DNA of 64,000 nucleotides from Thermodesulfobacteriota bacterium. Its GTDB lineage: Bacteria; Desulfobacterota; Desulfobacteria; Desulfobacterales; C00003060. Location of the stretch: assembly GCA_034189385.1 (NCBI GenBank), contig JAXHVD010000004.1, positions 64,001 through 128,000 of the forward strand, given 5' to 3'. Shown piece after piece: positions 13,791-64,000 of the stretch. The stretch's first letter is position 1. Each line of letters starts with the position of its first letter. The notes below the pieces were generated by a model. The model did not search any database. It was not told the origin of the DNA and saw nothing but the letters and a program-made list of their open reading frames with translations. The position numbers and the translations under genes were made by a program.

Positions 13791-15317
13791 ATGAGTAGAT
13801 TCCTCTATACGGCACGGGCCGTCTTCCTGGGGCTATTGACCACACAGATCATAGCCACGCTTCATGTCTATCTCTCCAATGCAGACCTTTACCGCACCGT
13901 TTCGGCAATATCAGAGGCAGGCTATCTTCCAATTCCGAACCACCGTGTGGCATCCAGTCTCAACCAGTTTGGCCCTGCCCTCTGTGGGGGGCTGTTCTTC
14001 ACGCTGAGCATTGGTGCAGGTCTTTCCATCCTGTGGGTCTGCTGTGCCTGGATCTGGGATCGCCTTTTCGGCCGTAACTGTTCCCTTTTGATTCCCCTTG
14101 GACTTCTTTGGGTGGGCATGGCTGCGGCCATGAACAGCCAAGGCTTTTCGCCCATAGTGACCTCCTATTTCATAGTGACTCCCTTGGTGGTCTTTTGGGC
14201 TGCCTTGAAATGGATGCCCAATGAGGGGGAAAAGTGGGTATGGGTAAACAGGCTTACTCCCATCCTTCCTATTGTCCTCTTAACGCTCATATGGACAGCC
14301 CACACTATGTGGACGGCCCATAGGCATAAGTCATCCTTTGCGGATATTTTGTTTGAGGATATCAGGGATTACCTGTTGCTCTCAAACCCGGTGGGGGAAA
14401 AAGTGGATCACTTCTACTACCGCTACACCCTCTACCCGGCAGAGGTCTTTAAGTCCTTGGACCAGAAAACGCTCAAAACATGCCACGTAGCATCCATCAA
14501 GGACCAGGCAGTTGCCCGGAAGATAGAACACACGCTGATCCATTACGACTATCTCCCTGTGGCTGCAAGGGCGCCGATCGATTTGGATATCGCGGCATCG
14601 GCGGACGTGCTCTCGTTCAGGTACCGTGGCAAGACGATACTTCACACCTCGTACAAGGAATTTTTCTCTCAGCAGAAAAAGATGTTGACCTTTTTTTCTG
14701 CTGAAACAGACAGGCACGGGCCCTTTCGTCAGGCCACCATCCTGTGCCTTGTTCTAGGATTTCCAATCACTTTGTATGTGATGGTCTTTGCCTTGATCCA
14801 CTTTGTGTTTGGATTCCTGGTTGGTCCAAAACGCTATTCTTTGATCACAGGGGCTTTGTGTTTTCTTATAGGCCTGGCCCTATTGGCTCCCCTTCGCATC
14901 GGACGCTCAAAGACGACCGACGCCATGAACGTATCCAAAGCCCTTGCCTCTGAGTACTGGCAACAGAGGATACTGGCCTTGAGAAGGGTGGTAGAGAAGA
15001 GAATCGAGATCGGAGACCTTCCTGTCTATCACAAGATGATGACCAGCCCTCATGTGCCTGAGCGGTACTGGTTGGCCAAGGCCCTGGGAGAGAGTCGAGA
15101 TCCCGGGACCTATGAGGACCTTGTGACGCTCCTGGATGACCCTCATCCCAATGTGGTCTCCATGGCATTCTGTGGCCTGGGGCAACGAGGAGACAAAAAG
15201 GCTGTGCGCAACATCTTGGAAAGGATTGAGACCTCAGATCACTGGTACAATCAGTGGTATGCCTATAACGCTCTTCGAGATCTTGGCTGGGAACAACGGC
15301 CCGTCGCCTCGCAGTAA
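13791..15317 (+). CDS. Membrane protein with C-terminal HEAT-like repeats
   Basis: Multiple TM segments; ERYWLAKALG...LLDDPHPNVVSMAFCGLG. Confidence 0.7.
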   Translation: MSRFLYTARAVFLGLLTTQIIATLHVYLSNADLYRTVSAISEAGYLPIPNHRVASSLNQFGPALCGGLFFTLSIGAGLSILWVCCAWIWDRLFGRNCSLLIPLGLLWVGMAAAMNSQGFSPIVTSYFIVTPLVVFWAALKWMPNEGEKWVWVNRLTPILPIVLLTLIWTAHTMWTAHRHKSSFADILFEDIRDYLLLSNPVGEKVDHFYYRYTLYPAEVFKSLDQKTLKTCHVASIKDQAVARKIEHTLIHYDYLPVAARAPIDLDIAASADVLSFRYRGKTILHTSYKEFFSQQKKMLTFFSAETDRHGPFRQATILCLVLGFPITLYVMVFALIHFVFGFLVGPKRYSLITGALCFLIGLALLAPLRIGRSKTTDAMNVSKALASEYWQQRILALRRVVEKRIEIGDLPVYHKMMTSPHVPERYWLAKALGESRDPGTYEDLVTLLDDPHPNVVSMAFCGLGQRGDKKAVRNILERIETSDHWYNQWYAYNALRDLGWEQRPVASQ

Positions 15318-49873: not shown

Positions 49874-52300
49874 ATGAAAAGCAAAGCAACCGTTTGTTTC
49901 TCTCTGTTTCTATTGATCATCGTGACTCCTTGTTTTGTTTTTCAAAAACAGCCTGCTTCTGGACTTGCCCTGGCCGCAAGCCGAGATCCGGGGGACGTGG
50001 GATATGAATATCTGGAGGGTGAAGAAGAACAACGTTGCCCAAATTACAGCCATGTAGAGGTTCTGGATTCAACGGCTGAATCTGTCATGCTGCGATTTTC
50101 CCTCGGAGAAATGGACATTGGTTCCATGGAAATGGCAGATGGGAACCAATACCATACCATCATGGACCCGAGCCCCGAAGCTGGAACCTTTGAAGTGGGA
50201 AAACCGGCAGTTCCCGTATTCGGCTACTGGATTCTGATCCCAAATGGAACAGAACCGGAACTGGTCATTGATCCTGGGGGTTGCGCGATCATAGACGCTA
50301 TTCACCTGAAACCGGTACAACCCTCTGCCTACGCCCTGGACGATGAAAACATCATCCCCCCTTTTACCAAAGATGAAGAGGCATACGCTGCAGACAGGAG
50401 ATACCCCGGTGTATTGGCCGAACTGGGGCCCACGGAGATCGTTCGCGGCCAGCAATGCGCCCTTCTTTGGATCTATCCCTATCAATACAATCCGACACAA
50501 GAAAGGACCTATGCCTATCACTCCCTTGCAATAGCCATTCACTTCCATGGCCACATCATGCCAAAGCCCGACAATTTTTTTGATCCCCTTTTTCGCCGGG
50601 TGTCGCTTAATGGAGATGCCGTCATCTCGGCTGAAGACGAAGCAAAAGGACTGTTGGAGCCGCCTCCTCATGAGGTCTATCCCAAAGGCTCCTACGGCTG
50701 GGATTATATTATTGTGACACACCCTGACTTCAAGGCAGCGGCCCAGGACATGGCGGCCTGGAAAAAGCAATGTGGGTTCAAGACAGCCATCTATATGAAG
50801 CATCATCTAAAGGCCCAGGACATCAAGAATGTCCTCAAGGACGGGTTTGACCGCTGGGACATTAAGCCCAAGTATGTTCTTATTATCGGCGACGCAGAGT
50901 ATGTGCCCACCAACTATAAGACGGAACACGGCATGAACAAAGGAAAGATCGGGACGGATCTCTATTATACAACGTTGAATACAGGCCCCAGTCTGGATCA
51001 AACGGACTATCAGCCGGACATTTACATTGGAAGAATCTCTGTTGATACGGACGGCCAGGCCAAAAGGAGGGTAAAGGCCATCATCAACTATGAAGAAACC
51101 CCCACCATGAATAGCCACTTTTACAACAACGTGGCCCTGTGTACCTATTTTCAGGACGGGGGTAATTACTCCATGGACGGCGTTAAGAAGTATTTTCAGC
51201 CCAATGGTGTTGAAGATGGGATGTTCTGCAGGACAACGGAAAAACTGGCTGTATATCTGTCAGATGGAAAGCACAAGATCAAGAAATCCGTCAACAGAAT
51301 TTACTACACGGAAAACAATGTCACGCCAGCCAAGTGGGGTTTTTCTGAAAGCCCCAGCAGTACGCAGGGGACTCCGATCCCCGCCTATCTTCAAAGACCC
51401 CATTTCGGGTGGAGCGGATACCACGTGGACATAACCAATGCCGTCACTTCCGGCGCTTTTCTGGTGACACATTTTGATCATGGGGGCAGACAGGAGTGGG
51501 TCCATCCGGCCTATGAATGGTCAGACGCGTACCTCCTATTTAACTTCTCTTTGCTGCCTGTGGTCTGGAGCGCAAATTGCCAAACGGGCTGGTTTGATAA
51601 TGAGACAGATGACCCCAAGGCAAACACAAAGGCCTCGGAGGAGTGTTTCAGTGAATACTGGGAAAGACCTGCCTACAGTGTCTACGGGGATTGCGGCGCC
51701 GTAGGGATCATTGCAGGAACACGGATAACCTGGAACGAATACAATTCCTATCTGCTCCAGGGATGGACCGATGCCATCTGGCCCGGGCTCTTGCCCACAT
51801 CTTCTCCCGCAGACCTTCGCGTACTGGAAATGGGCCCTGTGCTCTGTGCCGGCAAATTCTATATGGCGACAAAAGTCAAGGAGGAGACCAAATATACGGG
51901 AGCGTCAAAAACAACCACAGAGAAGATAAGAAAGCACTATGAGATGTATCATTGGTTTGGCGATCCCTCCATGGAAATCCGAACGGAAAAGCCCAAATAC
52001 GTCTACGCCCAGATCCCCCAAGTGTTGTCCTTGAGTGACTACCTGAAGCAGTTCACTGTGAATGTGCATTTCATAAATGAGCATCACGAACACCTGGGTC
52101 CTGCGTCGGGCGCCAAGGTCACCATCTCCAAGATCGATGCCCCTCTTGACGATTATTCCAACTATTTCGTGGGCGTCACCGATGAAGAAGGCGCAGTCCA
52201 CTTTAATGAAGCCGCCATGAGCACACCAGGGCAATACACGGTGACCATCACCGCATCAAATGGTGTCCCCTTTCAGGACCTATTGACGATGGAGGAATAG
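49874..52300 (+). CDS. C25 (gingipain-like) cysteine peptidase with propeptide
   Basis: Signal peptide; propeptide GKPAVP; YVLIIGD, DIYIGRI; catalytic DHG and ANCQTG; FGDP. Confidence 0.85.
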   Translation: MKSKATVCFSLFLLIIVTPCFVFQKQPASGLALAASRDPGDVGYEYLEGEEEQRCPNYSHVEVLDSTAESVMLRFSLGEMDIGSMEMADGNQYHTIMDPSPEAGTFEVGKPAVPVFGYWILIPNGTEPELVIDPGGCAIIDAIHLKPVQPSAYALDDENIIPPFTKDEEAYAADRRYPGVLAELGPTEIVRGQQCALLWIYPYQYNPTQERTYAYHSLAIAIHFHGHIMPKPDNFFDPLFRRVSLNGDAVISAEDEAKGLLEPPPHEVYPKGSYGWDYIIVTHPDFKAAAQDMAAWKKQCGFKTAIYMKHHLKAQDIKNVLKDGFDRWDIKPKYVLIIGDAEYVPTNYKTEHGMNKGKIGTDLYYTTLNTGPSLDQTDYQPDIYIGRISVDTDGQAKRRVKAIINYEETPTMNSHFYNNVALCTYFQDGGNYSMDGVKKYFQPNGVEDGMFCRTTEKLAVYLSDGKHKIKKSVNRIYYTENNVTPAKWGFSESPSSTQGTPIPAYLQRPHFGWSGYHVDITNAVTSGAFLVTHFDHGGRQEWVHPAYEWSDAYLLFNFSLLPVVWSANCQTGWFDNETDDPKANTKASEECFSEYWERPAYSVYGDCGAVGIIAGTRITWNEYNSYLLQGWTDAIWPGLLPTSSPADLRVLEMGPVLCAGKFYMATKVKEETKYTGASKTTTEKIRKHYEMYHWFGDPSMEIRTEKPKYVYAQIPQVLSLSDYLKQFTVNVHFINEHHEHLGPASGAKVTISKIDAPLDDYSNYFVGVTDEEGAVHFNEAAMSTPGQYTVTITASNGVPFQDLLTMEE

Positions 52301-53862: not shown

Positions 53863-54132
53863 ATGACGGGTCTTTTATTCATTGACGATGAGGAAGGGGT
53901 GCGCCGCTCAATCATTCGAGCGCTAAAAAGGGAACCATATACCGTCTATACAGCTGAAGAAGGGGAGACAGGAATCCGACTGGTTGAAAACGAACCCTCC
54001 AAGATCACCATTGTGGTTTCAGATTACAAGATGCCAGGGCTTGACGGCCTAGAGACGCTGGCACGCATTGCCGCTATCAACCCTGAAGTCACCCGCATCT
54101 TGCTCACCGGTTACGCCACCATGGAAAGATAA
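53863..54132 (+). pseudogene. Response-regulator (REC) gene truncated by element insertion
   Basis: FIDDE...SDYKMPGLDG...LLTGYATME then an immediate stop and a switch to AT-rich sequence; the REC fold is incomplete (no KP motif). Confidence 0.8.
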
Positions 54133-54207
54133 ATAAAAAAGACATGAATAATATAATAGTGCTCTCGCTGTAGCTGAATCAAATTATAAATAGTTTATAT
54201 TTAAAGC

Positions 54208-54248
54208 AAAGTCTGCCGTTAATTTTTCGGTGGGCTTTTGTATTTTTT
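54208..54248 (+). terminator. Terminator insulating the element from dusB read-through
   Basis: AAAGTCTGCCG...CGGTGGGCTTT followed by a T-rich tail. Confidence 0.65.
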
Positions 54249-54260
54249 GGGGGAAATTTT

Positions 54261-54288
54261 TTCGACTCTTCAAAAAGCATGTTATAAT
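54261..54288 (+). promoter_or_regulatory. Sigma70 early promoter with extended -10
   Basis: TTCGAC-16 bp-TATAAT preceded by TG. Confidence 0.7.
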
Positions 54289-54423
54289 ATTATGAGGAGC
54301 TGGAGATAACGTAAGAAGCTAAAAAAAACAATTCTGAAGGCCTCGTCGGGGAATCAAACTCCTAAGCGTTATCTCCTCCCGGCGGGGCCTTTTTTATTCT
54401 GTGATGAAAGGAGGTGAGAGAGG

Positions 54424-54582
54424 ATGGACGAAACTTTAGAAGAACGAGAACAGCTGGCCCACGAGGAAGCGAAACTCATAGCTCACGAGGAGGCTAAACA
54501 GGGCCAAGATTATGAGGAAGCCTATGAGGAAGCCTATGAGTCAGCATACAACGAGGCGTACCAAGAAGCTATGACGGACTAA
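54424..54582 (+). CDS. 52-aa highly acidic protein (not in the ORF track)
   Basis: MDETLEEREQLAHEEAKLIAHEEAKQGQDYEEAYEEAYESAYNEAYQEAMTD; RBS AAAGGAGGTG. Confidence 0.75.
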   Translation: MDETLEEREQLAHEEAKLIAHEEAKQGQDYEEAYEEAYESAYNEAYQEAMTD

Positions 54583-54600
54583 AGCAAAGGAGGAAATACA

Positions 54601-54966
54601 ATGAGTAACGAGGAAGAAGTAGAAAGAAGACATTGGTTGGAAGGGTATGTCAATGATGAAGATATGTCCGGTGAACCCACGTCACCGGCGGAGAAGCAGT
54701 ACGAAGATGCGCTTTGGAAAATGGGCTTCCAATATAGTCTTACAGATACAGGTTTAGTCTATAAAACTTGGGATGCTCAAGAGGCCACAGAAATCGTGGC
54801 TAAGGTGGCCGCGGTCGTTAGGGAATTGGAATTGGACGAAGATGCGTTTAGCCTGAGTCACACTATTCAACCCCAGTGCCCAAAGTGCGGAAGCCTTGGC
54901 CGTTTTTCTGATTTTCATTGTAGGGATTGTGGGGCTGAACTTTTGCCGAGTGAGTATTGTGACTGA
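54601..54966 (+). CDS. Acidic protein with C-terminal zinc ribbon
   Basis: CPKCG...CRDCG; RBS AAGGAGG. Confidence 0.75.
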   Translation: MSNEEEVERRHWLEGYVNDEDMSGEPTSPAEKQYEDALWKMGFQYSLTDTGLVYKTWDAQEATEIVAKVAAVVRELELDEDAFSLSHTIQPQCPKCGSLGRFSDFHCRDCGAELLPSEYCD

Positions 54967-55060
54967 ACTACTACAATAATTTTTGGGTGGGCGCTCCTGG
55001 AGGGTTTTGCCAGTCTCCTTCCCTTCGGGGGCGCTCCACCACACGATGAAAGGAGGTGAA

Positions 55061-56108
55061 ATGAGTTTTGAGTCAGTATTTCCACCAGACTATAAGCCGG
55101 GTTTGACTGTTCGGGGTGGCCCAGGAAAGCACAAAAGGATGGCTGAGAATCGCCAAGAAACGCTCACGAAGATTCGGGAGATCGACAGCCAAATTGACTT
55201 CAAGATGACGCTCCGTGGCTGGTGTTACATGTTAGAGCAAGAATGGGGCTTGGCCAAGTCCGACTTCAGCACTAAGGCAATGCGGTATTTCGGTGAGTAC
55301 CGAGAACGTGGGCAACTTCCCTTGGACTTCTGCCTCGAAGACGACAACCGAGCATTCAGCCAAGGAGAATCGCTTGTCGATGCCGTAGCACCTGATGACT
55401 TCGTGCAAGACGCTTTTGCTTCCTTGCGCGACATTCACACGTACTACAAGCCGCTATCCTTTTGGAACAACCAGAAATACTATATCGAGATGCTAGTTGA
55501 AAAGGCGGACCTCGTTTCACTATTCCGACCTATCTGCTCCAAGTTCAATATCCGAATTGCTAACACTCATGGAAATGCCAGCTATGGTCAGCGCTATGCC
55601 ATGATAAACCGCTTTCGGCAACATGAAGAAGAAGGTCGCAAGCCGGTGCTCTTGTATTGCGGCGACCATGACCCAAGTGGATTGATGATAAGCGATAGGC
55701 TAAAGCATAATTTCAAAAAACTGGAACTGGCAACAGGATGGAGCCCAGACAATCTGCTCATTGACAGGTTTGGGCTAAACTATGACTTCATTGAGAAGCA
55801 CAATCTTTCTTGGATTGACAGCTTGATAACGGCTTCTGGCGAGAATCTCGCTAGCTCGCGACACCATGACTATAAAAAAGCCTACGTGCAGAGCTACATC
55901 AATGAGTATGGTTGCAGAAAAGTTGAGGCAAATGCCATTGTAGTGAGACCGGAGATGGGGCGTAAACTTTGTTATTACAATTCTGCGCTACATCGACCTT
56001 CATGCCGTTGAGAATTTTAAATCTCAGATAAAGGATTCACAGCGAGTAGTTAGAACTTTAACTGAGGATATCCTTGAAGCTGTGGCGGTGGCGTTTATTC
56101 CATCATGA
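55061..56108 (+). CDS. Spo11/Top6A-like (WHD plus Toprim) protein; +1 frameshift near 55970
   Basis: MTLRGWCY WHD motif; Toprim MLVEK...G...YCGDHDPSG; VEANA; the +1 frame continues VITILRYIDLHAVENFK to TGA at 56108. Confidence 0.7.
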
Positions 56109-56223
56109 AGAGGCATTAGGAAAAAGGAGGCAAGAGAGATTTGGTACAAAAAAGTACCAAAGATAACCCCAAGAGAAAACACACAAAACCGGAGACAAAA
56201 AAACAGTTAGAGGAGGCAAGACA

Positions 56224-56790
56224 ATGACAAAAGACGGTAAAAAAGCGGTGGTCGTTTGGCTAGGAACAGATCCATTTCATGCTGAGAAATGCTGGCCTGC
56301 CGCCGCGAAGAGGCTTGGTTATGATGTTATCACTGAGAAAGACGTTAGGCAAGGTATTAGTCTGATGACAGCCGAACACCTTCAAGTACCACGTCGCAAT
56401 TACGAAGATCACGGTATAGACACACCTTACAACCATTGCAGGCAGTGCGGATGCTTTTTATGGGATGCACCGGGGCCATCACTGCTGGAAAGATGGAGCA
56501 AGCTATTTTTAAAAGCACATGAAATCGCTCAAAAGGTGGGCATGTCAATCGGCAAATACTACACTGCCCGAAATGGCTGGATAAGTGGTCGCACCTGGAC
56601 GGATGCTGAAGCGATAGAGGCAGTATGCCAAGACGAATATATAAGTGCACTGTGCGATTGGCTATTTATTATAAACGGTGAAGACATCCCCACTCTCGAA
56701 AAACCAGTCAAGGATGCCCGAATTACGCCTGATATTATTGAATGGCAAGATAGGGCGAATCAATACTTGGCAGATATTGGTCGGTGGTAA
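56224..56790 (+). CDS. Hypothetical protein
   Basis: 188-aa ORF with GAGGAGG RBS and CRQC motif; followed by a terminator-like hairpin at about 56833-56872. Confidence 0.7.
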   Translation: MTKDGKKAVVVWLGTDPFHAEKCWPAAAKRLGYDVITEKDVRQGISLMTAEHLQVPRRNYEDHGIDTPYNHCRQCGCFLWDAPGPSLLERWSKLFLKAHEIAQKVGMSIGKYYTARNGWISGRTWTDAEAIEAVCQDEYISALCDWLFIINGEDIPTLEKPVKDARITPDIIEWQDRANQYLADIGRW

Positions 56791-57045
56791 GGCTATTGGG
56801 TGAGATGATTAACACATCACACTCAACACACATGGGGCGGCGCTCAGAGTTCTGGTGCCGCCTCTGTTGTTTGGTGCTTTGTTGGGAACCGTGAAAAACG
56901 ACAAAAAACATGAAAGCTCTCTTTTTGGGCGCACTTTTTTTATAAGTATTTGTTTTTACTAGCTGTGAAATTAGCCTTGTCAATAATGCAATCTTCGAGA
57001 TCGCTTATTATATTAAAAATAAAAAGATTAAAGAGGTGTAGTCAA

Positions 57046-57243
57046 ATGAAGTCAAGGCTATGGGCAGTGTTACAAAACAGGAAACTGGAACAAAAGAAAG
57101 TCGCCGCCGAGCTGGGTCTGCACCATGTACGGTTGAACCAACTGTGCAACGGTAGGGAGCCGACCAGATTGGAGGCGAAAAAAATATGTGAGCATTTTAG
57201 TATGGATGAAAGCGACCTATTTTCACCAGTCCTATTTTTGTAA
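57046..57243 (+). CDS. XRE/Cro-like HTH regulator
   Basis: LEQKKVAAELGLHHVRLNQLCNGREP...KICEHF; RBS AAGAGGTG. Confidence 0.8.
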   Translation: MKSRLWAVLQNRKLEQKKVAAELGLHHVRLNQLCNGREPTRLEAKKICEHFSMDESDLFSPVLFL

Positions 57244-57255
57244 GGAGCACAATTT

Positions 57256-57417
57256 ATGAACACAGACTATCTTCAGGAGAAATACCCGCTTCAACGCGTT
57301 GCGGAAAACCCTGTAAGGAACGGCCCGGGGATTGTGTGGCTGCTCGCGAAGCAGATCGAGACCAACAGCCTATTGAAAGCGATTTTGAAAGAACTAAAAA
57401 AAGATACAGATGAGTAA
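57256..57417 (+). CDS. 53-aa hypothetical protein
   Basis: MNTDYLQEKYPLQRV...LLKAILKELKKDTDE; RBS TAAGGAG. Confidence 0.55.
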   Translation: MNTDYLQEKYPLQRVAENPVRNGPGIVWLLAKQIETNSLLKAILKELKKDTDE

Positions 57418-57551
57418 AACAGTTTTCACTGGACAAGGCTTTGCAAACCTTGCCCACAATCACCAACCGCCGCAGTCGGTAGGAATGACTTCTGACCTCC
57501 TAGTCTGGGTCCTTCCTCCGGCTGTGGTCACAATCAGACTAGGAGGAAGAT

Positions 57552-58166
57552 ATGCGAAGGAATGGGAAACAACCGAACGAGATCAACAAGGCCAAGATTG
57601 CTCAAGCTAGGAGCCAGCTTCTTAGGTGGCCAAAAGATGTGGTCAGCGCGGTTGTGGGTGACGTTTTCGAGATACTTGCACAAGAGGATGAGTTCTCCGC
57701 TGTCCGGGTTTCTGCTAAACCCTATAAATGGCCACAGTGGATTTACAGTACCAAAAAGCTTCGACACGTGATGAACAGGACTAGATTTCAAGACATGTAT
57801 AATTATCTTTGGCTCAACAAGTTCCCCTTCATCAAGAGGCATTCACACGTGTTCCTGAAGGTGGGGGCTGATGCAGCCGACATCCTGGTGAAGATACGAA
57901 CAAAGGACATGGCCAACAACCTGGACCCTCCTTGTTCGAAACAACTCGTGAATAAGTATTTGGCCTATTTCTCGCGTATCGGGATAATCGAAAAACGGGG
58001 CATCATTGCGTATCAGAACGTGTATTGCATCGCGAAACAGGGAAGCTTTCATGAGGTGATTTCAGACAATGGGACAAAACAGGTGGTGGAAAGGCCAAGA
58101 GTTCTGCCACTGCTTACGGCGAAGGCAAAGAGGGAGATCGAAGGTTTTGACACTATTTTCTCATAG
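57552..58166 (+). CDS. Putative replication initiator / wHTH DNA-binding protein
   Basis: Basic protein with wHTH-like SKQLVNKYLAYFSRIGIIEK; immediately followed by an origin-like palindrome cluster. Confidence 0.45.
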   Translation: MRRNGKQPNEINKAKIAQARSQLLRWPKDVVSAVVGDVFEILAQEDEFSAVRVSAKPYKWPQWIYSTKKLRHVMNRTRFQDMYNYLWLNKFPFIKRHSHVFLKVGADAADILVKIRTKDMANNLDPPCSKQLVNKYLAYFSRIGIIEKRGIIAYQNVYCIAKQGSFHEVISDNGTKQVVERPRVLPLLTAKAKREIEGFDTIFS

Positions 58167-58169
58167 CTC

Positions 58170-58400
58170 TCATTATTCAGTACTGAATAATGAAATTATT
58201 CAGTGTGAAGTCACTGAATAATGGGAATCTTTGGGATATATTATAATAACTAGGGCTTAAGCAATGGCGGACCTTAATGTAATATATAATCTAATTCAAG
58301 TACCCTGTATATATATCAGCTTTTCCTTATACACTTTTCTCCTTCCAAGTATTCAGGAAGAAAAGTGTATAGGAAGTGGCGCTAAAGCGCCACCTCCTTT
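58170..58400. repeat. Origin-like cluster of palindromes
   Basis: Perfect 24-bp palindrome TCATTATTCAGTACTGAATAATGA; ATTATTCAGTG-6-CACTGAATAAT; TATACACTTTTCT/AGAAAAGTGTATA; GTGGCGC-TAAA-GCGCCAC; AT-rich spacer. Confidence 0.75.
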
Positions 58401-58529
58401 TATTTATTCGTTCTGCTTAAATAGAGGGAGTGGTCCTGAATGAAACACAACCCGGTCCTGAAGAACACTAATCGACAAGGTGTCGCGCGCCGCTGCTGCT
58501 GGTGGTGGCAAAGGAGGAACTAGCAGACA

Positions 58530-58685
58530 TTGAAGACTACAGATCCCACTGAAAAGATATGCTGGCGCTGCCGCAGGGAGCATGAAGGACCATGCCCCTA
58601 TGCCGCCCATGCAACCGTTGACGACAAACACACCGGCGCTGATTGCTACATTGCGCCGGGCACAGAGGAGGACAAGAAGGAGTGA
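58530..58685 (+). CDS. 51-aa Cys/His-rich small protein (TTG start)
   Basis: KICWRCRREHEGPCPY...ADCY; AAGGAGG upstream; GTGA overlap with the next gene. Confidence 0.45.
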   Translation: MKTTDPTEKICWRCRREHEGPCPYAAHATVDDKHTGADCYIAPGTEEDKKE

Positions 58686-58831
58686 ATAAAAGTACGGGAC
58701 GATGGATCGAGCCCATTGTAAAACCGGACCCCGAAGTGCAAGAGCTTCAGAAACGCTCGGGCAACTTTGACCCCCCGGTCAAGAGAAGACCAGGAAGACC
58801 AAAGGGGTCAAAGACCAAGAAGAAGAAATGA
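58682..58831 (+). CDS. Small basic AT-hook protein
   Basis: KRRPGRPKGSK; ATGA overlap with terL. Confidence 0.55.
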   Translation: MNKSTGRWIEPIVKPDPEVQELQKRSGNFDPPVKRRPGRPKGSKTKKKK

Positions 58832-60558
58832 TTGTACCCAAGATAGACAGACCAACCACACAAAGACTCCTGAAGATCCTGCGGGCTTTTATCACAAATG
58901 AGCAGGAGCAGAGCATGTGGCCCGTTTTGGATTTGACAGTGGACATGCTTCTTGATGACCCAGAGTTTCACTATTACTACACTGACACGTTTGAGTTTTA
59001 TTTGGAAAATGGCATTCACAACCGGATGGCACTCCATGCTTTCATTCGCCTTTTCTGTGGGTTCGACATTACAAGGCGGGGGGGCGTCGGAAAAGAGCCG
59101 TTTTGCAGTCCCTTTGATTTTGTGGCTGTCTTATTCTTTCAGGAGTGCCGGGATGCGCTGGCCATGGGATCACGAGCCAGCGGCAAGACTCTTGCTCTGG
59201 CCGTTTTGATTTACTTGTGGGCACTTTTCTACCCCGAGTGCGAAACGACAACCTGCGCTGCGACTAAGGATCAGTCATCGCGGGCTTTTTTGTATTTGCG
59301 AAAACTATGTACGAGCAGCAATGCAAGCAACAAACTTCTTAGTTCAAAGCCGACCGCTAAAGCTATCAAATGGGGAAACGGCTCTAGCGTGGAAATGACT
59401 ACTTCAAGTTTGGAGGGAGCGAATGCGCTTCATCCCAGCAAACTCCTTGCCGACGAATCGGAACTTTTGGACTGGAGGGTGGTAGAGGAAATGCTCTCGT
59501 GTGCTATATCACAAGGGGACATACAGGCGAGCACGGTCTTTCTGTCAAGTAGGAAGTTTCTGGACGGACCATTTCAAAGGCTGCTTGAGATGGCAAAAGA
59601 AAATCCCAAGACATACAAAATCTTCAATTGGAGTGCGTGGCAGGCCGTTGAAAGGTGTATGCGGAAATGTGACGACAAGGTTCATGGCAGGTGCGAACTG
59701 CAAGAGCTATGCAAGGGGCGGCTCCGAAAGAGTGACGGCCACTTGGACCTAGAAGACTTCAAGGCGAAGGTACGCCTTCTTTCCGATGAAGTTCTAAAAA
59801 GTCAATGGTTGAATCTCAAGCCGGTTATCACTTCGACGGTGTTCAATAACTATTATGAACCGGAAGTCAGTCTGATTTCACAGCCCGAAGATTTTCATTA
59901 TGATTTCACAGTCTGCGGTATTGACTGGGGGTCAACCAAGGCCAGCAATCTTGTTTTTCAACGATGGCTCGTGGATGTGAGCGACCTTCGTGACGATGCC
60001 ACGGGCCATGTGGATGTTGATAGTTATAAGAAGCCGACACTGTATCTTGCCTATGAATACCGGTCCGCCACTTCGGACATGGCTAGGCTGGCCAGGGCTA
60101 TACTTGAAAGCCCCTATAGAGAGGACTATGAATTGATCTTTGTGGACCCTTCTGGCAAGAGCCTGCGAAATGAACTGGCGCGTTTTGGGATAGAAACAGA
60201 GACGCCACTGGTCACGGGAGTGCAAGAAGGAATTGAGGTTCTGAAGGGGTATCTGAAACCCTATTGGTCAGGCAGGAAGCGCAAGTCGTGCCTATACATT
60301 TTAGACGGTTATTATCACGGTGAGCCAGACCTGGAGCCCACGCACAAAGAGCTTCAACTGATGCGTCACGTCACAAAGCCAGACGGCACCTTGTCACAGA
60401 ATATAGTGAAGGCGCATGACCACGGTGTTGACGCGGCACGATACGCCATAACTGCCGTGCGAAGCGTCATTGAGAGCCTTTATGCCCAGGACTTTGACGA
60501 GGATTTGGGACAGCTTGAACAGTTTGCCGAGACTTTTGGGATTGAAATCTTGGCCTAG
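58828..60558 (+). CDS. terL: Phage terminase large subunit
   Basis: Walker A GSRASGKT, AATKDQS, Walker B LLADESE; RNase H-like nuclease GIDWG, FVDPS, DHGVDAARY. Confidence 0.85.
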   Translation: MIVPKIDRPTTQRLLKILRAFITNEQEQSMWPVLDLTVDMLLDDPEFHYYYTDTFEFYLENGIHNRMALHAFIRLFCGFDITRRGGVGKEPFCSPFDFVAVLFFQECRDALAMGSRASGKTLALAVLIYLWALFYPECETTTCAATKDQSSRAFLYLRKLCTSSNASNKLLSSKPTAKAIKWGNGSSVEMTTSSLEGANALHPSKLLADESELLDWRVVEEMLSCAISQGDIQASTVFLSSRKFLDGPFQRLLEMAKENPKTYKIFNWSAWQAVERCMRKCDDKVHGRCELQELCKGRLRKSDGHLDLEDFKAKVRLLSDEVLKSQWLNLKPVITSTVFNNYYEPEVSLISQPEDFHYDFTVCGIDWGSTKASNLVFQRWLVDVSDLRDDATGHVDVDSYKKPTLYLAYEYRSATSDMARLARAILESPYREDYELIFVDPSGKSLRNELARFGIETETPLVTGVQEGIEVLKGYLKPYWSGRKRKSCLYILDGYYHGEPDLEPTHKELQLMRHVTKPDGTLSQNIVKAHDHGVDAARYAITAVRSVIESLYAQDFDEDLGQLEQFAETFGIEILA

Positions 60559-60570
60559 GAAATAGAATCA

Positions 60571-61341
60571 ATGGCAGATTATGACGAGAGAAAATTTGAA
60601 GAGGTTCTGAGCCTAGTAGGCAAAGGCAACACCCTGGACACGGCATGTTACAGCTCTGGAATCGAACCGAGGCGAGTGAGAAGTTGGATCAAAGCCAACA
60701 GAGGAACCTGCGGGTTGAAATATAAGCAAGCCAAGGCACGATTCATAACGGAGCTAAGAAGTCAGATGTTGGCAGCGCCGCCCGGAGACAAAAGAAACGC
60801 GCTTGCCAGGGAATTGGCTGCACATGATCCCAGCTTTGCGAGGAGCGTGGCACAACAGCACAAGCGGTTGATCGAGCAGGAAGACAAGGAAAGGGACAAG
60901 GCACTTGAGCAAACACTTGGCAGGGTTGATTATGGCTTCGCGGGATGGAAGCTGAAGAAGCGGGACGGTGTAAGGAAGCTAAAGGCGGGCAATCTTGACG
61001 AGAAGGCACTTAAAACAATCTGGTCTTGGAGTCTGGCCGGAGAAGACAAGAAGGACATCAAAGAGAGATACGACTTCGAGCAGAGGATTCTTGGAAATGC
61101 TACCAAGCAGAGCATGAAACAAGTAGCAGAAAAAATAAAGGCGCTGATGGTGGGAAGGAACAAGATGAGCAAGGACGAGGAGCGACTTCTCACTGAAAAG
61201 ATAGTCACAGCAAAAAAGACCAAGAGTCCTTATAAACTGAAGGATTCAAATGGAGGGGTGATAGAGCTTCCAGCGATTGAGCTAGAGTGGAAACAGGAAA
61301 AGAAAAAGACAGTCAGGAGAAAGAAGAAAACAAGAAGATAA
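60571..61341 (+). CDS. TerS-like N-terminal HTH protein with basic tail
   Basis: FEEVLSLVGKGNTLDTACYSSGIEPRRVRSW resembles small-terminase HTH; adjacent to terL. Confidence 0.5.
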   Translation: MADYDERKFEEVLSLVGKGNTLDTACYSSGIEPRRVRSWIKANRGTCGLKYKQAKARFITELRSQMLAAPPGDKRNALARELAAHDPSFARSVAQQHKRLIEQEDKERDKALEQTLGRVDYGFAGWKLKKRDGVRKLKAGNLDEKALKTIWSWSLAGEDKKDIKERYDFEQRILGNATKQSMKQVAEKIKALMVGRNKMSKDEERLLTEKIVTAKKTKSPYKLKDSNGGVIELPAIELEWKQEKKKTVRRKKKTRR

Positions 61342-61416
61342 AGAGAGAATAGCGTGATTCGAAACGCTGGCAGGGATGTGCCTCCTTTTTCGGAAGTGGC
61401 CTCCTTTTTGGGTTGG

Positions 61417-61482
61417 CTAAACAATTCTCAATAGGATTACAAATCCAATAAGAACGTTTAATGCAATTATGTAATTAAACAT
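61417..61482 (-). CDS. 21-aa hydrophobic peptide, candidate type I toxin
   Basis: MFNYIIALNVLIGFVILLRIV; RBS AAAGAGGTG; promoter TTGACA-17-TATCTT at 61525-61553; 13-bp 5'/3' complementarity of the transcript. Confidence 0.7.
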   Translation of the reverse strand: MFNYIIALNVLIGFVILLRIV

Positions 61483-61951
61483 AAGCATCACCTCTTTGAA
61501 AAGGATTTCCCTGCCAGCGTGCATAAGATACCAAAGGTAGGAAGTTTTGTCAAGGAGGGGGAAGAATAAGAAAGGATGATATAGTGATTGAAGATGGGGG
61601 GTATATGATAGTGGTCAAGAAGCAGGCACTAGAAAAATGCCTATATACCACACAAATAGAAAGCTTTTCTGAGTGCTCTATTTGCTACATAGGGACTGAG
61701 AGGGAAACCACATAAGAACATGGAAGCAGAGACAGGTTATAAGCACTTAAAATATATTAGAAAACAGGAGGAACAGCTTTCAAGTCTACATATTGGGGTG
61801 TGGCTACTCAGCAAGTCCACGCCCAGCTTGTATTTGAGAGCGACACCATCGGCAAACATAAGCTACAAAAGGCTTTACAAATGACATCGGAACATATTAA
61901 AATATGGCTGTTTCAGAGCCTAAAACACGCAACAGGAAAGGGGCAAATCGG

Positions 61952-62638
61952 ATGAAAACAGCCGTCGGTTATGTCAGGGTTTCAACCATCGAACAGGCCC
62001 AACAGGGTGTTAGCCTAAAGAACCAGCAGGCGAAGATCAAGGCATGGGCGAAGCTCAACGGATATGCTTTGAAAGACGTATATCGTGACGAGGGAATCAG
62101 CGGAAAAGCTATGGACAACCGGGACGGACTACAGAGTGCGCTCAAGAGTGTGGGCAAAGGCGATGCGCTGGTTGTTTACAGCCTGTCGAGGATGGCCCGG
62201 TCAACCAGGGATGCCCTGGCTATCGCGGAGGCGCTACAACACAAGGGCGCAGATCTGGTGAGCGTCACTGAGCACATAGATACGACAACTGCGGCGGGGA
62301 AAATGGTGTTCCGAATGCTGGCCGTGCTCAATGAGTTCGAAAGGGACCAGGTGTCTGAGCGCGTCACACAGGCGCTGGCCTACAAGCGCGGCAAGAATGA
62401 ATGGGTGGGCCGTGTACCGTACGGTTTCAGGGTACATGCTGGAAAGCTGGTGGAGGACACAGAACAGATTGAAAGCATCAAGAAGATGAAACGGCTTCGG
62501 AAAAGGGGCAAGACTCTGCGCGACATTTCAAAGACGTTTGGGGTATCACCCGCGTATGTTTTAAGGGCTGTAAATGTCAACCTGAGGACGCTGAAAGCTA
62601 AGTATCTCAACGGATCACGGCTTCAGCCTGTTTATTAA
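61952..62638 (+). CDS. Serine recombinase (resolvase/invertase catalytic domain with a short C-terminal region)
   Basis: GYVRVST.EQ, DEGISG, VYSLSRMAR, EFERD, GRVPYGF. Confidence 0.92.
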   Translation: MKTAVGYVRVSTIEQAQQGVSLKNQQAKIKAWAKLNGYALKDVYRDEGISGKAMDNRDGLQSALKSVGKGDALVVYSLSRMARSTRDALAIAEALQHKGADLVSVTEHIDTTTAAGKMVFRMLAVLNEFERDQVSERVTQALAYKRGKNEWVGRVPYGFRVHAGKLVEDTEQIESIKKMKRLRKRGKTLRDISKTFGVSPAYVLRAVNVNLRTLKAKYLNGSRLQPVY

Positions 62639-62902
62639 ACAAATGGTTTTTAAACAAAAAGGGTTTGAAATGGACTTAAACAGATTAAATGTGAAACGGT
62701 CACAGTGATATGACAACCGGTCAAACTGCCCCAGGCAACCAGCTCTTCCCACTCCGCAGGGCGAGGGACGGGGGCGCCGTCTTACATCACCACCGAAAAT
62801 CAAACGGGCGATGGACGGGGCACTCCGCAGAAAATTAAATTATATTAGCTGTCCCCGAAGCACAAGGAAAGGAGAAATACTACAAGAGGAGCGTGAAGCA
62901 CA

Positions 62903-63235
62903 ATAGCCAGTAAAGACACGTATTGCATATTCTGCAACAGACCCGAGCCACAGTACACCCCGCCAAACGCAGACACAGAAATCGTCTGTAGCCGGTGCGT
63001 TCAGCGCCTAGTAAACGCCACCCAGGAACAACTCTTGACCCTGTACAAGGTAGCACTGGCACGGGACTAAGCAGGTAGCCGACGAGCTGGCCGGAAGCTG
63101 GCTGCTACCGGAAACGCTAGAACAAATAGAAGAGGAGGAAGGAGACTGTGAGCAAGAAACCGGAGAGACTAGACCAGATCTGGAGCGAGCGAGACCTTTG
63201 CCGTCGTCTAGACCTGCCCGTCACCAAGAACGGTA
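62903..63235 (+). pseudogene. Decayed C4 zinc-finger gene
   Basis: ATA in place of a start after GAGGAG; YCIFC...VCSRCVQ; apparent frameshift near 63066. Confidence 0.5.
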
Positions 63236-63363
63236 AAAGCGCGAGGCTGGGGTATTGGATCAGGGGCGGCCTGAACTACGTCGAGAAGTCAGGCAAGCGG
63301 TATTTCTTTGAATCTGATGTCATTGACTACCTGTGGAGCCGATATGAGAACCGAGACGAATAA
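63148..63363 (+). CDS. Excisionase/MerR-like HTH protein
   Basis: SERDLCRRL...LGYWIRGGLNYVEKSGKRYFFESDVIDYL. Confidence 0.65.
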   Translation: MSKKPERLDQIWSERDLCRRLDLPVTKNGKSARLGYWIRGGLNYVEKSGKRYFFESDVIDYLWSRYENRDE

Positions 63364-63521
63364 GGGCTGTAAGTTGCAAACCACACACACGGTTGGGGGT
63401 AGGTTTTGACTAGCTTTTATATAACTTTAAGGGGGTATTTTTCCGGGTTAATAGGGTTACATGCCTTTTCCTGAAAACCCCCGTTAAACAGCGGATAAGA
63501 AGCTTTTACGGCGTATTTACA

Positions 63522-63758
63522 ATGACTCAACAACAGACAGACAGGATCATTCTCAACGGCAGAATCACGGAGAACCAGGCCTTCGGCAAGTGGGCAGTGG
63601 AGCTGAACCACCGCTCCGGCTGCACGACCTTGGCGTCGTGTTACGCATCCGGAAGACTGCGGCTTGCGTCAATCCGCATGCTGCCCGGTGATTGGGTGAA
63701 AGTGGAGCTTTCGCCCTATGACCTGAGTCGAGGCCGGATTCTATATCGTTTCAAATAA
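63522..63758 (+). CDS. infA: Divergent translation initiation factor IF-1 homolog
   Basis: [36 protein letters not shown] matches the IF-1 C-terminal signature. Confidence 0.8.
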
Positions 63759-63958
63759 CTACTCTACCCAGCGCAGCATTATCGTGGTGGCTTCCTCGCT
63801 GTGTCTGGTCCGGCAGAACCTAAGTCAGCTGTCGGAGGATTCATAAGGAAGCCACTAACACGCACGGTCGCAACCTCCAAAACCGGGGCGGCCCGTGCCA
63901 CCGCAGTTAGAATCGGGCCGCCCCATACTTTTAAACTGACAAAAGGAGTGAAAGAAAA

Positions 63959-64000
63959 ATGACAACAGAATATTGGCAGATACCGGCGGATCAGGATTTC
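63959..64000 (+). CDS. Start of a further element gene (partial)
   Basis: AAGGAGTG RBS, then MTTEYWQIPADQDF to the window end. Confidence 0.5.
   Translation, partial: MTTEYWQIPADQDF

What the first reader, a model, noticed from the sequence alone, without database searches (positions are those of the whole stretch)
63522..63758. Mobile-element-encoded, divergent IF-1
Seen: the C-terminal half matches IF-1 closely ([23 protein letters not shown]), while the N-terminal half diverges ([25 protein letters not shown] versus the canonical ExLPNxxFRVxLENG) and there is no obvious RBS. It lies among element genes, not in a ribosomal-protein context. Established: IF-1 is an OB-fold factor that binds the 30S A-site and also has RNA-chaperone/antitermination activity in E. 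coli. Inference: it may bias translation, or melt the element's RBS-sequestering hairpins and attenuators, forming a self-contained regulatory circuit.
Basis: partly seen in the sequence, partly recalled or inferred. Interest (0 to 1): 0.7.

Follow-up and report, generated by a model that had tools for sequence, protein, structure and literature searches.

The report
Ribosome factor IF-1 in integrated element
A 15-kb mobile DNA element inserted in a signalling gene of a marine bacterium carries its own intact, remodelled copy of the translation-start factor IF-1, which likely still docks on the host ribosome; giant phages are already known to carry such copies, so mainly the small carrier is unusual.

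Summary
The 78-aa ORF (63522-63758, +) is an IF-1 homologue: TIGR00008 69.3 bits against a cut-off of 61.15, with a predicted IF-1 fold. It lies in a 15,176-bp serine-integrase element that splits a host response-regulator/cyclase gene at an AAAG core. The host (Desulfobacterales) has its own infA after rpsI, so this is an extra copy. The C-half is under purifying selection and keeps the uS12, 530-loop and h44 contacts G38, R41, R46, Y60, D61. The N-half is homologous but has lost K2, P18, R23 and gained 4 residues. Phage IF-1s and the host's own genus-specific IF-1 show the same N-biased drift; ordinary IF-1s do not. It has no Shine-Dalgarno site, no close relative in any collection searched, and its origin is unresolved by trees. 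Best reading: an accessory initiation factor acting at the 30S A site (0.55), as proposed for huge-phage IF1. The proposed RNA-melting circuit has little support: only one of the three leaders (57.5 kb) has a clear anti-SD switch, and nothing links it to IF-1. Decay, or inhibition of initiation, are not excluded. The scan had not noted this protein on other DNA.

The parts
63522..63758 (+). IF-1 homologue, 78 aa (P0001); remodelled N-half with 4-residue insertion, conserved C-half; no SD
54129..64000 (.). Part of the 15,176-bp integrated element inside the window; it continues to window-equivalent 69304 on G000:C34 (serine integrase at 67511-69325, Arc/RHH regulators, PEP-CTERM gene, small ORFs)
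54125..54128 (+). Left attachment core AAAG; the second copy lies at window-equivalent 69301-69304
   Evidence: intact gene in 7 of 7 relatives examined; contig joint skipping 15176 bp with 4 shared letters
53863..54132 (+). 5' half of the interrupted host response-regulator/adenylate-guanylate cyclase gene; the 3' half resumes at window-equivalent 69305
54335..54400 (+).
   Evidence: z -1.29
54986..55041 (+).
   Evidence: z -2.97
55061..56011 (+). Topoisomerase-like protein (phrog_6247)
   Evidence: E 3.6e-48, scored on the longer ORF from 54983
57046..57243 (+). Cro/CI-type HTH regulator
57496..57546 (+). 12-bp perfect anti-SD (57496-57507) against the SD region (57535-57546), competing with a long hairpin
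   Evidence: -34.0 vs -36.8 kcal/mol; 5 of 1439 genome-wide GGAGG-ATG sites reach 12 bp
57552..58166 (+). 204-aa protein, RepL-like by language-model features (lead only)
   Evidence: score 0.93; RepL on 17-25% of members of the hit clusters
58828..60558 (+). Terminase large subunit-like protein
   Evidence: phrog_2, E 3.7e-10
60571..61341 (+). 256-aa protein with a weak terminase small subunit match
   Evidence: phrog_1482, E 0.015
61904..62638 (+). Small serine resolvase/invertase
63148..63363 (+). 71-aa HTH-like ORF with a strong SD, directly upstream of IF-1
   Evidence: HTH_17, E 0.043, weak
63959..64000 (+). Start of a 226-aa orphan ORF downstream of IF-1 (ends at window-equivalent 64639)
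   Evidence: no family and no homologue found

Best explanation
The ORF is an intact, element-borne second IF-1 that likely binds the host 30S A site through its conserved uS12, 530-loop and h44 contacts and is predicted to act as an accessory initiation factor that tops up or retunes initiation when the element is active. Shown: homology, predicted fold, element location, separate host infA, purifying selection on the C-half. Inferred: expression, ribosome binding, and that the remodelled h44 loop (P18, N19, R23 lost) changes affinity or start-site fidelity rather than abolishing function. Low, SD-independent expression would suit a modulator better than a replacement.
For: Above the infA equivalog cut-off. 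AlphaFold pLDDT 83.8 with IF-1 topology; best PDB matches are all IF-1, TM up to 0.81, rmsd about 1.5 A (the model was built from an IF-1 alignment, so this is not independent). C-half against 47 IF-1 genes: pS 0.56-0.94, pN 0.21-0.44; against host infA, 18 of 32 identical residues use different codons. Uniform neutral decay gave an open frame with this N/C pattern in 1 of 36,000 simulations. GC3 is 0.84 in the N-half. Of the eight residues that bioRxiv 10.1101/2023.10.27.564398 calls the most conserved 30S contacts, five are kept (G38, R41, R46, Y60, D61), as are Y35, R64, R66. Y60/D61 contact uS12, a protein, which free-RNA melting would not need (inference). A changed loop is compatible with function: the host's only other IF-1 has S18/H19/G20, and that variant is the only copy found in 28 of 37 genus genomes. 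Among 56 distinct viral-contig IF-1s without ribosomal-operon markers, only 17 keep P18 and 24 have insertions in the same hairpin. Phage IF1 is proposed in print to redirect host translation.
Against: No SD and no expression data. Three of the eight key contacts are lost (K2, P18, R23), all on the N-terminal side, and the N-half is more divergent than in 54 of 56 viral copies. N-half pN (0.51-0.61) approaches pS. No close relative exists in any collection searched, so current selection cannot be measured. Related Toprim and terminase loci carry no IF-1 in the DNA held. C-half conservation in the viral set is inflated because those loci were picked by C-half patterns; the five phage copies not picked that way show a smaller asymmetry (0.47 vs 0.63).
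Confidence: 0.55

Rival explanations
1. A dominant-negative IF-1 mimic: it docks at the A site through the conserved C-half but, lacking the h44 loop and N-terminal lysine, does not promote or release initiation properly, and so dampens translation during helper-phage infection (satellite interference or abortive defence).
For: Binding residues kept while loop residues are lost. The element has terminase-like genes, but no capsid or portal match appeared among the ORFs scanned, which is satellite-like. Weak translation signals would limit toxicity. IF1 retained on the ribosome blocks subunit bridges (passages of bioRxiv 10.64898/2026.06.26.734871).
Against: The host's sole other IF-1 also lacks P18/N19 and must work. 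Loop changes are common in viral copies. No helper phage was identified, and the defence-family library was not searched.
Confidence: 0.15
2. A once-functional captured IF-1 that is now silent or under relaxed selection: a passenger in the element.
For: No SD, while most neighbours have strong ones. N-half nearly saturated. Singleton in all searches. End branch 2.2-2.7 changes per column.
Against: Frame, stop position and core hydrophobic pattern are intact; neutral decay is rejected as the cause of the pattern. Both halves of the target gene still join to the relatives' reading frame, which suggests a recent or active element. The start region is predicted to be unpaired. Very recent silencing cannot be excluded.
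Confidence: 0.17
3. One reading: the protein acts mainly as an RNA chaperone or antiterminator that opens the element's own leaders.
For: E. coli IF1 has RNA-chaperone and antitermination activity (review PMC3017892, passages). A real 12-bp anti-SD switch lies at 57.5 kb and a terminator-like hairpin at 54.3 kb. The protein is basic (12 K+R vs 6 D+E).
Against: Selection is concentrated on ribosome-contact residues, including the uS12 contacts. The 55.0-kb SD is not sequestered, and the 54.3-kb fold is not significant. The protein has one His, not at either E. coli His position; that those histidines are needed for melting is recalled from Phadtare et al. 2007, which could not be read. No evidence links IF-1 to the leaders.
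Confidence: 0.12

Closest known systems
IF1 genes of huge phages (Al-Shayeb et al. 2020, PMC7162821; Lak megaphages, bioRxiv 10.1101/356790; Jug phages, PMC12880540)
   Same: Extra IF-1 on a mobile genome, outside the ribosomal-protein operon, with a conserved C-half and a variable N-half; proposed to redirect or augment host translation.
   Different: The carrier here is a 15-kb integrated element with no other translation gene or tRNA found, not a 170-600 kb phage. It is more divergent than nearly all viral copies examined and has no detectable close kinship to them.
Bacterial IF-1 (infA; TIGR00008, PF01176; PDB 1HR0, 9FCO, 4QL5)
   Same: Passes the family cut-offs; same predicted OB fold; keeps G38, R41, R46, Y60, D61, R64, R66 equivalents and Tyr at 35.
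   Different: K2/3, P18, N19, R23 lost; 4-residue insertion around the beta2-beta3 hairpin; Y44 to S; no SD; not the genome's housekeeping copy.
The host genus's rpsI-linked IF-1 variant (G000:C15:21331-21555)
   Same: Also remodels the h44 loop; shares G20 and S44 with the element copy; 26 of 36 C-half residues identical.
   Different: The element copy keeps E15 and S37 like canonical IF-1, where the variant does not; synonymous sites are saturated; trees do not join them, though joining is not rejected.
Phage satellites and PICI-like integrated elements
   Same: About 15 kb, integrase at one end, several small regulators, terminase-like genes, a possible Rep, no capsid match.
   Different: Large serine rather than tyrosine integrase (the PICI norm is recalled); no primase found; no helper known; carries IF-1. 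Membership not established.

Membership tests
Bacterial IF-1 (infA) | Score above the curated family cut-off | tested here: met
   TIGR00008 69.3 > 61.15; PF01176 43.2 > 30.2
Bacterial IF-1 (infA) | Five-stranded OB barrel with a short helix | tested here: met
   pLDDT 83.8; TM 0.79-0.81 to 4QL5/9FCO; model built with an IF-1 alignment
Bacterial IF-1 (infA) | uS12 and 530-loop contacts (Y60, D61, G38, K39, Y/H35, R66) | tested here: met
   Y66, D67, G44, R45, Y41, R72; contact list from passages of bioRxiv 10.1101/2023.10.27.564398
Bacterial IF-1 (infA) | h44 contacts R41, R46, R64 | tested here: met
   R47, R52, R70
Bacterial IF-1 (infA) | Conserved h44 loop (P18, N19, R23) and N-terminal Lys | tested here: not met
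   A20, F21, A25; no Lys before residue 23. The host's own IF-1 also lacks P18/N19
Bacterial IF-1 (infA) | Housekeeping copy of the genome | tested here: not met
   Separate host infA after rplM-rpsI on C15
Bacterial IF-1 (infA) | Binds the 30S A site and supports initiation | not testable with these tools
   needs biochemistry or complementation
Mobile-element/phage-encoded IF-1 | Located inside a mobile element with defined ends | tested here: met
   att cores, split host gene, serine integrase, empty site in relatives
Mobile-element/phage-encoded IF-1 | Belongs to a known phage IF-1 lineage | tested here: inconclusive
   long branch, unresolved among 96 rows including 5 phage copies; the viral-contig set was aligned but not treed
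Huge-phage translation toolkit | Large genome with tRNAs and several translation factors | tested here: not met
   15 kb; no tRNA; no other translation gene among the ORFs scanned
RNA chaperone/antiterminator (Csp-like role) | Melts RNA structure or reads through terminators | not testable with these tools
   only the leaders could be examined: one of three has a clear anti-SD switch
PICI/phage satellite | Helper-dependent packaging with own integrase, regulators and replication genes, no structural genes | tested here: inconclusive
   integrase, regulators and terminase-like genes present; no capsid/portal hit; Rep is a lead only; helper unknown

The most novel reading that the evidence does not exclude
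A satellite-sized element uses a loop-remodelled IF-1 as a ribosome-level switch: it occupies the 30S A site through the conserved uS12/530-loop face but changes decoding-centre remodelling, and so favours or blocks particular mRNAs during helper-phage infection. With the host genus's own wholesale swap of canonical IF-1 for a loop-altered paralog, this would show that the supposedly invariant h44 loop of IF-1 is an evolvable tuning site contested by hosts and mobile elements.
Probability: 0.15. Interest if true: 0.7.

Novelty: new variant of a known kind. Interest (0 to 1): 0.32.

Why it matters
Phage IF1 genes are reported from huge phages, but the passages I read give only predicted roles, and my ten literature searches surfaced no functional test of a mobile-element IF-1 and no report of one in a small integrated element; subscription journals are mostly outside that library. 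A 78-aa, single-gene case is easy to test and would show whether such copies help, retune or block initiation. The natural loop variants (element copy and host-genus paralog) also test which IF-1 contacts are dispensable. As it stands this is a single sequence with no relatives and no expression data, so its weight is modest.

Tried and rejected
Close relatives: none found. Word-indexed search gave 55 other proteins at 41-58% identity, ordinary IF-1s where named or inspected. The unindexed search of 1.84 billion representatives gave top hits that are duplicated-segment artefacts or ordinary IF-1s (30 of 149 hits inspected). Viral contigs gave none. Metagenome (13 loci) and genome (4 loci) scans gave ribosomal-operon IF-1s, two phage-like copies and chance matches (15 of 17 loci inspected). 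In 300 genomes of the order nothing exceeded 52% identity in the rows listed. Frameshift or chimera in the N-half: rejected. Descent from the host variant: two shared states for, two against; AU p 0.18; unresolved. Plasmid hits (155 records): the one I opened was a ribosomal-operon fragment, so they were not counted as mobile IF-1s. Several 'phage' hits (Listeria, Enterococcus, Staphylococcus, Acinetobacter, unnamed faecal records) were not checked and may be host DNA. Sister elements: terminase in 0 of 36 other genus genomes; Toprim in 1 of 400 other order genomes, on a 6.2-kb contig without IF-1; no IF-1 near 10 viral loci fetched through a distant terminase relative; no viral hits for the terminase or Toprim themselves. 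Rfam: nothing at gathering score, one sub-threshold miRNA match. Promoter and terminator scans were at chance level. The IF-1 leader fold is not significant (z -0.27). No RNA holder was listed; this says nothing on expression. Whether a second sample varies within the IF-1 gene is open. Phadtare 2007 was not held. No complex prediction was run, since the relevant partner is rRNA plus uS12 in the 30S.

Full report
1. Observation. It scores above the curated cut-offs for infA (TIGR00008, 69.3 vs 61.15 bits) and PF01176 (43.2 vs 30.2), matches solved IF-1s by sequence (best E 3.8e-12) and an unnamed phage family (phrog_30201, E 1.8e-13). AlphaFold with a 51-sequence IF-1 alignment gives pLDDT 83.8 and IF-1 topology; the first eleven PDB matches are bacterial IF-1. 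There is no SD: -1.7 kcal/mol against -8 or better for 12 of 22 element ORFs and -10.8 for host infA (the anti-SD motif is recalled, not read from this genome's 16S). The start codon and first codons are predicted unpaired.

2. The carrier. The window is G000:C34:64001-128000. A host gene for a response regulator fused to an adenylate/guanylate cyclase is split: its 5' half stops at 54132 and its 3' half resumes at window-equivalent 69305. In 7 of 7 genus relatives examined the gene reads through this point. Both ends carry an AAAG core, and a contig in run X1 (277 bp, 23 differences, so a related organism) joins across exactly 15,176 bp with 4 shared letters; loose ends in X3 show the same empty site. 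X1 may be the source of this genome. Element depth (37) equals flank depth, so there is no sign of induction; contig depth is only a rough guide. The element encodes a 604-aa serine integrase, a resolvase, terminase large- and weakly small-subunit-like proteins, a topoisomerase-like protein, several HTH/Arc/RHH regulators, a PEP-CTERM protein and orphans. No capsid, portal, tRNA or Rfam RNA was found. It looks satellite-like, but no helper is known. Names on the host IF-1's cluster place the host in Desulfobacterales.

3. Host IF-1. The genome has a second IF-1 at C15, after rplM-rpsI with a strong SD; secY runs directly into rpmJ without map or infA. So the element copy is extra. The host copy is itself unusual: its h44 loop has S18/H19/G20. 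By score, 31 of 37 genus genomes have this variant, 5 have a canonical copy, 3 have both and 4 (65-83% complete) show none. The rpsI context was checked for 23 variants. G007 keeps only an internally deleted canonical remnant, and G225 has a further variant copy elsewhere. The variants form one clade (100/100). A loop-altered IF-1 can therefore serve as a genome's only detected IF-1.

4. Selection and residues. Against 47 IF-1 genes, the C-half shows saturated synonymous sites and low non-synonymous change (pS 0.56-0.94, pN 0.21-0.44); the N-half has pN 0.51-0.61. A uniform neutral-decay model without indels reproduced an open frame with this pattern in 1 of 36,000 runs. The N-half is homologous in frame (0 of 20000 shuffles) and has GC3 0.84. 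Using the contact list in bioRxiv 10.1101/2023.10.27.564398 (passages read; Thermus numbering, which I mapped to E. coli numbering, with Lys2 to K3 inferred), five of the eight most conserved contacts are kept (G38, R41, R46, Y60, D61) and three lost (K2, P18, R23); Y35, R64 and R66 are kept and K39 is R. There is a 4-residue insertion between V24 and G38; its exact place differs between alignments. This shows past purifying selection on the ribosome-facing C-half. It cannot show present selection, because no close relative was found.

5. Comparison with other mobile IF-1s. tblastn of phage records gave 36 hits, including 15 Lak records, 6 Bacteroides phages, Sinorhizobium phage Phosso and two uncultured phages of 484 and 595 kb. 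Five were fetched and showed no ribosomal-operon marker nearby. An alignment-based scan of viral contigs found 167 IF-1 stretches; 80 were kept, giving 57 distinct proteins, 56 without operon markers within 6 kb (some may be host DNA). Among the 56, P18 is kept in 17, R23 in 23, and 24 have insertions in the same hairpin. Identity to E. coli (N/C) is 0.67/0.70 for canonical cellular copies, 0.40/0.70 for the host variant, 0.47/0.63 for five phage copies not picked by pattern, 0.42/0.65 for the pattern-picked viral set (biased towards conserved C-halves) and 0.25/0.62 for the element. In print, IF1 is listed among huge-phage genes that intercept host translation (PMC7162821, passages), in Lak phages (10.1101/356790, one passage) and as a core Jug phage gene (PMC12880540, one passage). 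I read no supplements; those of PMC7162821 may list IF1 in smaller genomes.

6. Origin. In a 96-row, 72-column tree the element copy is an unresolved long branch (2.7; bootstrap not settled). In a 28-row tree it has no supported sister. Forcing it with the host variants is not rejected (p-AU 0.182). It shares G20 and S44 with the variant but E15 and S37 with canonical copies. The origin is open.

7. The proposed RNA circuit. E. coli IF1 has chaperone and antitermination activity (review PMC3017892, passages); the primary paper was not held, and the role of its two histidines is recalled only. Of the three leaders, 54.3 kb is a terminator-like hairpin with only weak SD pairing (z -1.29; mean P unpaired 0.22 in a longer window), 55.0 kb is a stable hairpin (z -2.97) that leaves the SD free, and 57.5 kb has a perfect 12-bp anti-SD competing with a long hairpin, 2.8 kcal/mol apart; 5 of 1439 genome-wide SD sites reach that length. 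The 57.5-kb gene is RepL-like by features only. Translational switches before replication genes are common in plasmids (own knowledge) and need no IF-1. Nothing found links IF-1 to these leaders.

8. Mechanism and verdict. Most likely (0.55) the protein binds the 30S A site and works as an accessory or retuned initiation factor. IF1 is described as a modulator of initiation efficiency and fidelity that blocks subunit bridges until it leaves (bioRxiv 10.64898/2026.06.26.734871, abstract and passages), so a loop-altered copy could shift either. Rivals: silent passenger (0.17), dominant-negative mimic (0.15), RNA chaperone circuit (0.12). It is a true IF-1 homologue that fails the canonical loop and housekeeping tests, and a new variant of the known phage-borne IF-1s, unusual for its small carrier. 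Earlier scan notes hold this same stretch from an overlapping window (report withheld) and no look-alike on other DNA. Interest 0.32.

Noticed in passing
L001:1483-1707 (G000:C15:21331-21555); L008; L028-L048; L077, L078, L081: The host genus has largely replaced canonical operon-linked IF-1 with a loop-altered paralog after rplM-rpsI: by score 31 of 37 genomes have the variant, 5 the canonical copy, 3 both; G007 keeps a deleted canonical remnant and G225 has a third copy elsewhere. This may be more interesting than the element copy.
   Followed up: partly
window 57450-57560: Two-state leader with a perfect 12-bp anti-SD before a RepL-like gene; candidate translational switch controlling element replication.
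   Followed up: partly
window 54125-54132 and L005:17301-18049: The element splits a conserved response-regulator/adenylate-guanylate cyclase gene cleanly, and precise excision would restore it. The integrase stop codon lies outside the right core, so its C-terminus would differ in the circular form.
   Followed up: partly
window 54400-54423 and 55043-55063: The 54424 and 55061 genes share the same 15-nt stretch containing the SD, each just after a long hairpin.
   Followed up: no
L005:13928-14770 and about 14820-15070: A PEP-CTERM protein gene inside the element has a 42% identical relative on C22, and its upstream DNA recurs on C25, C22, C6, C36 and C3; likely host-type cargo with a repeated upstream element.
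   Followed up: no
L183 (G126:C140:1-6167): The only relative of the topoisomerase-like gene among 400 other order genomes (49%) lies beside a phage-type primase and small regulators in another element-like contig.
   Followed up: partly
L106, L120-L122, L126, L130, L134, L138, L140, L142-L144, L159: A tight group of viral-contig IF-1 variants lacks R41 and R46 and has a 2-residue hairpin insertion; whether these are phage genes or host second copies was not checked.
   Followed up: no
L005:12647-12692: Two tandem 23-nt repeats and several small hairpins between the 226-aa ORF and the 64814 ORF.
   Followed up: no
window 49874-52300: Host gingipain-family (peptidase C25) gene of 808 aa upstream of dusB.
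   Followed up: no
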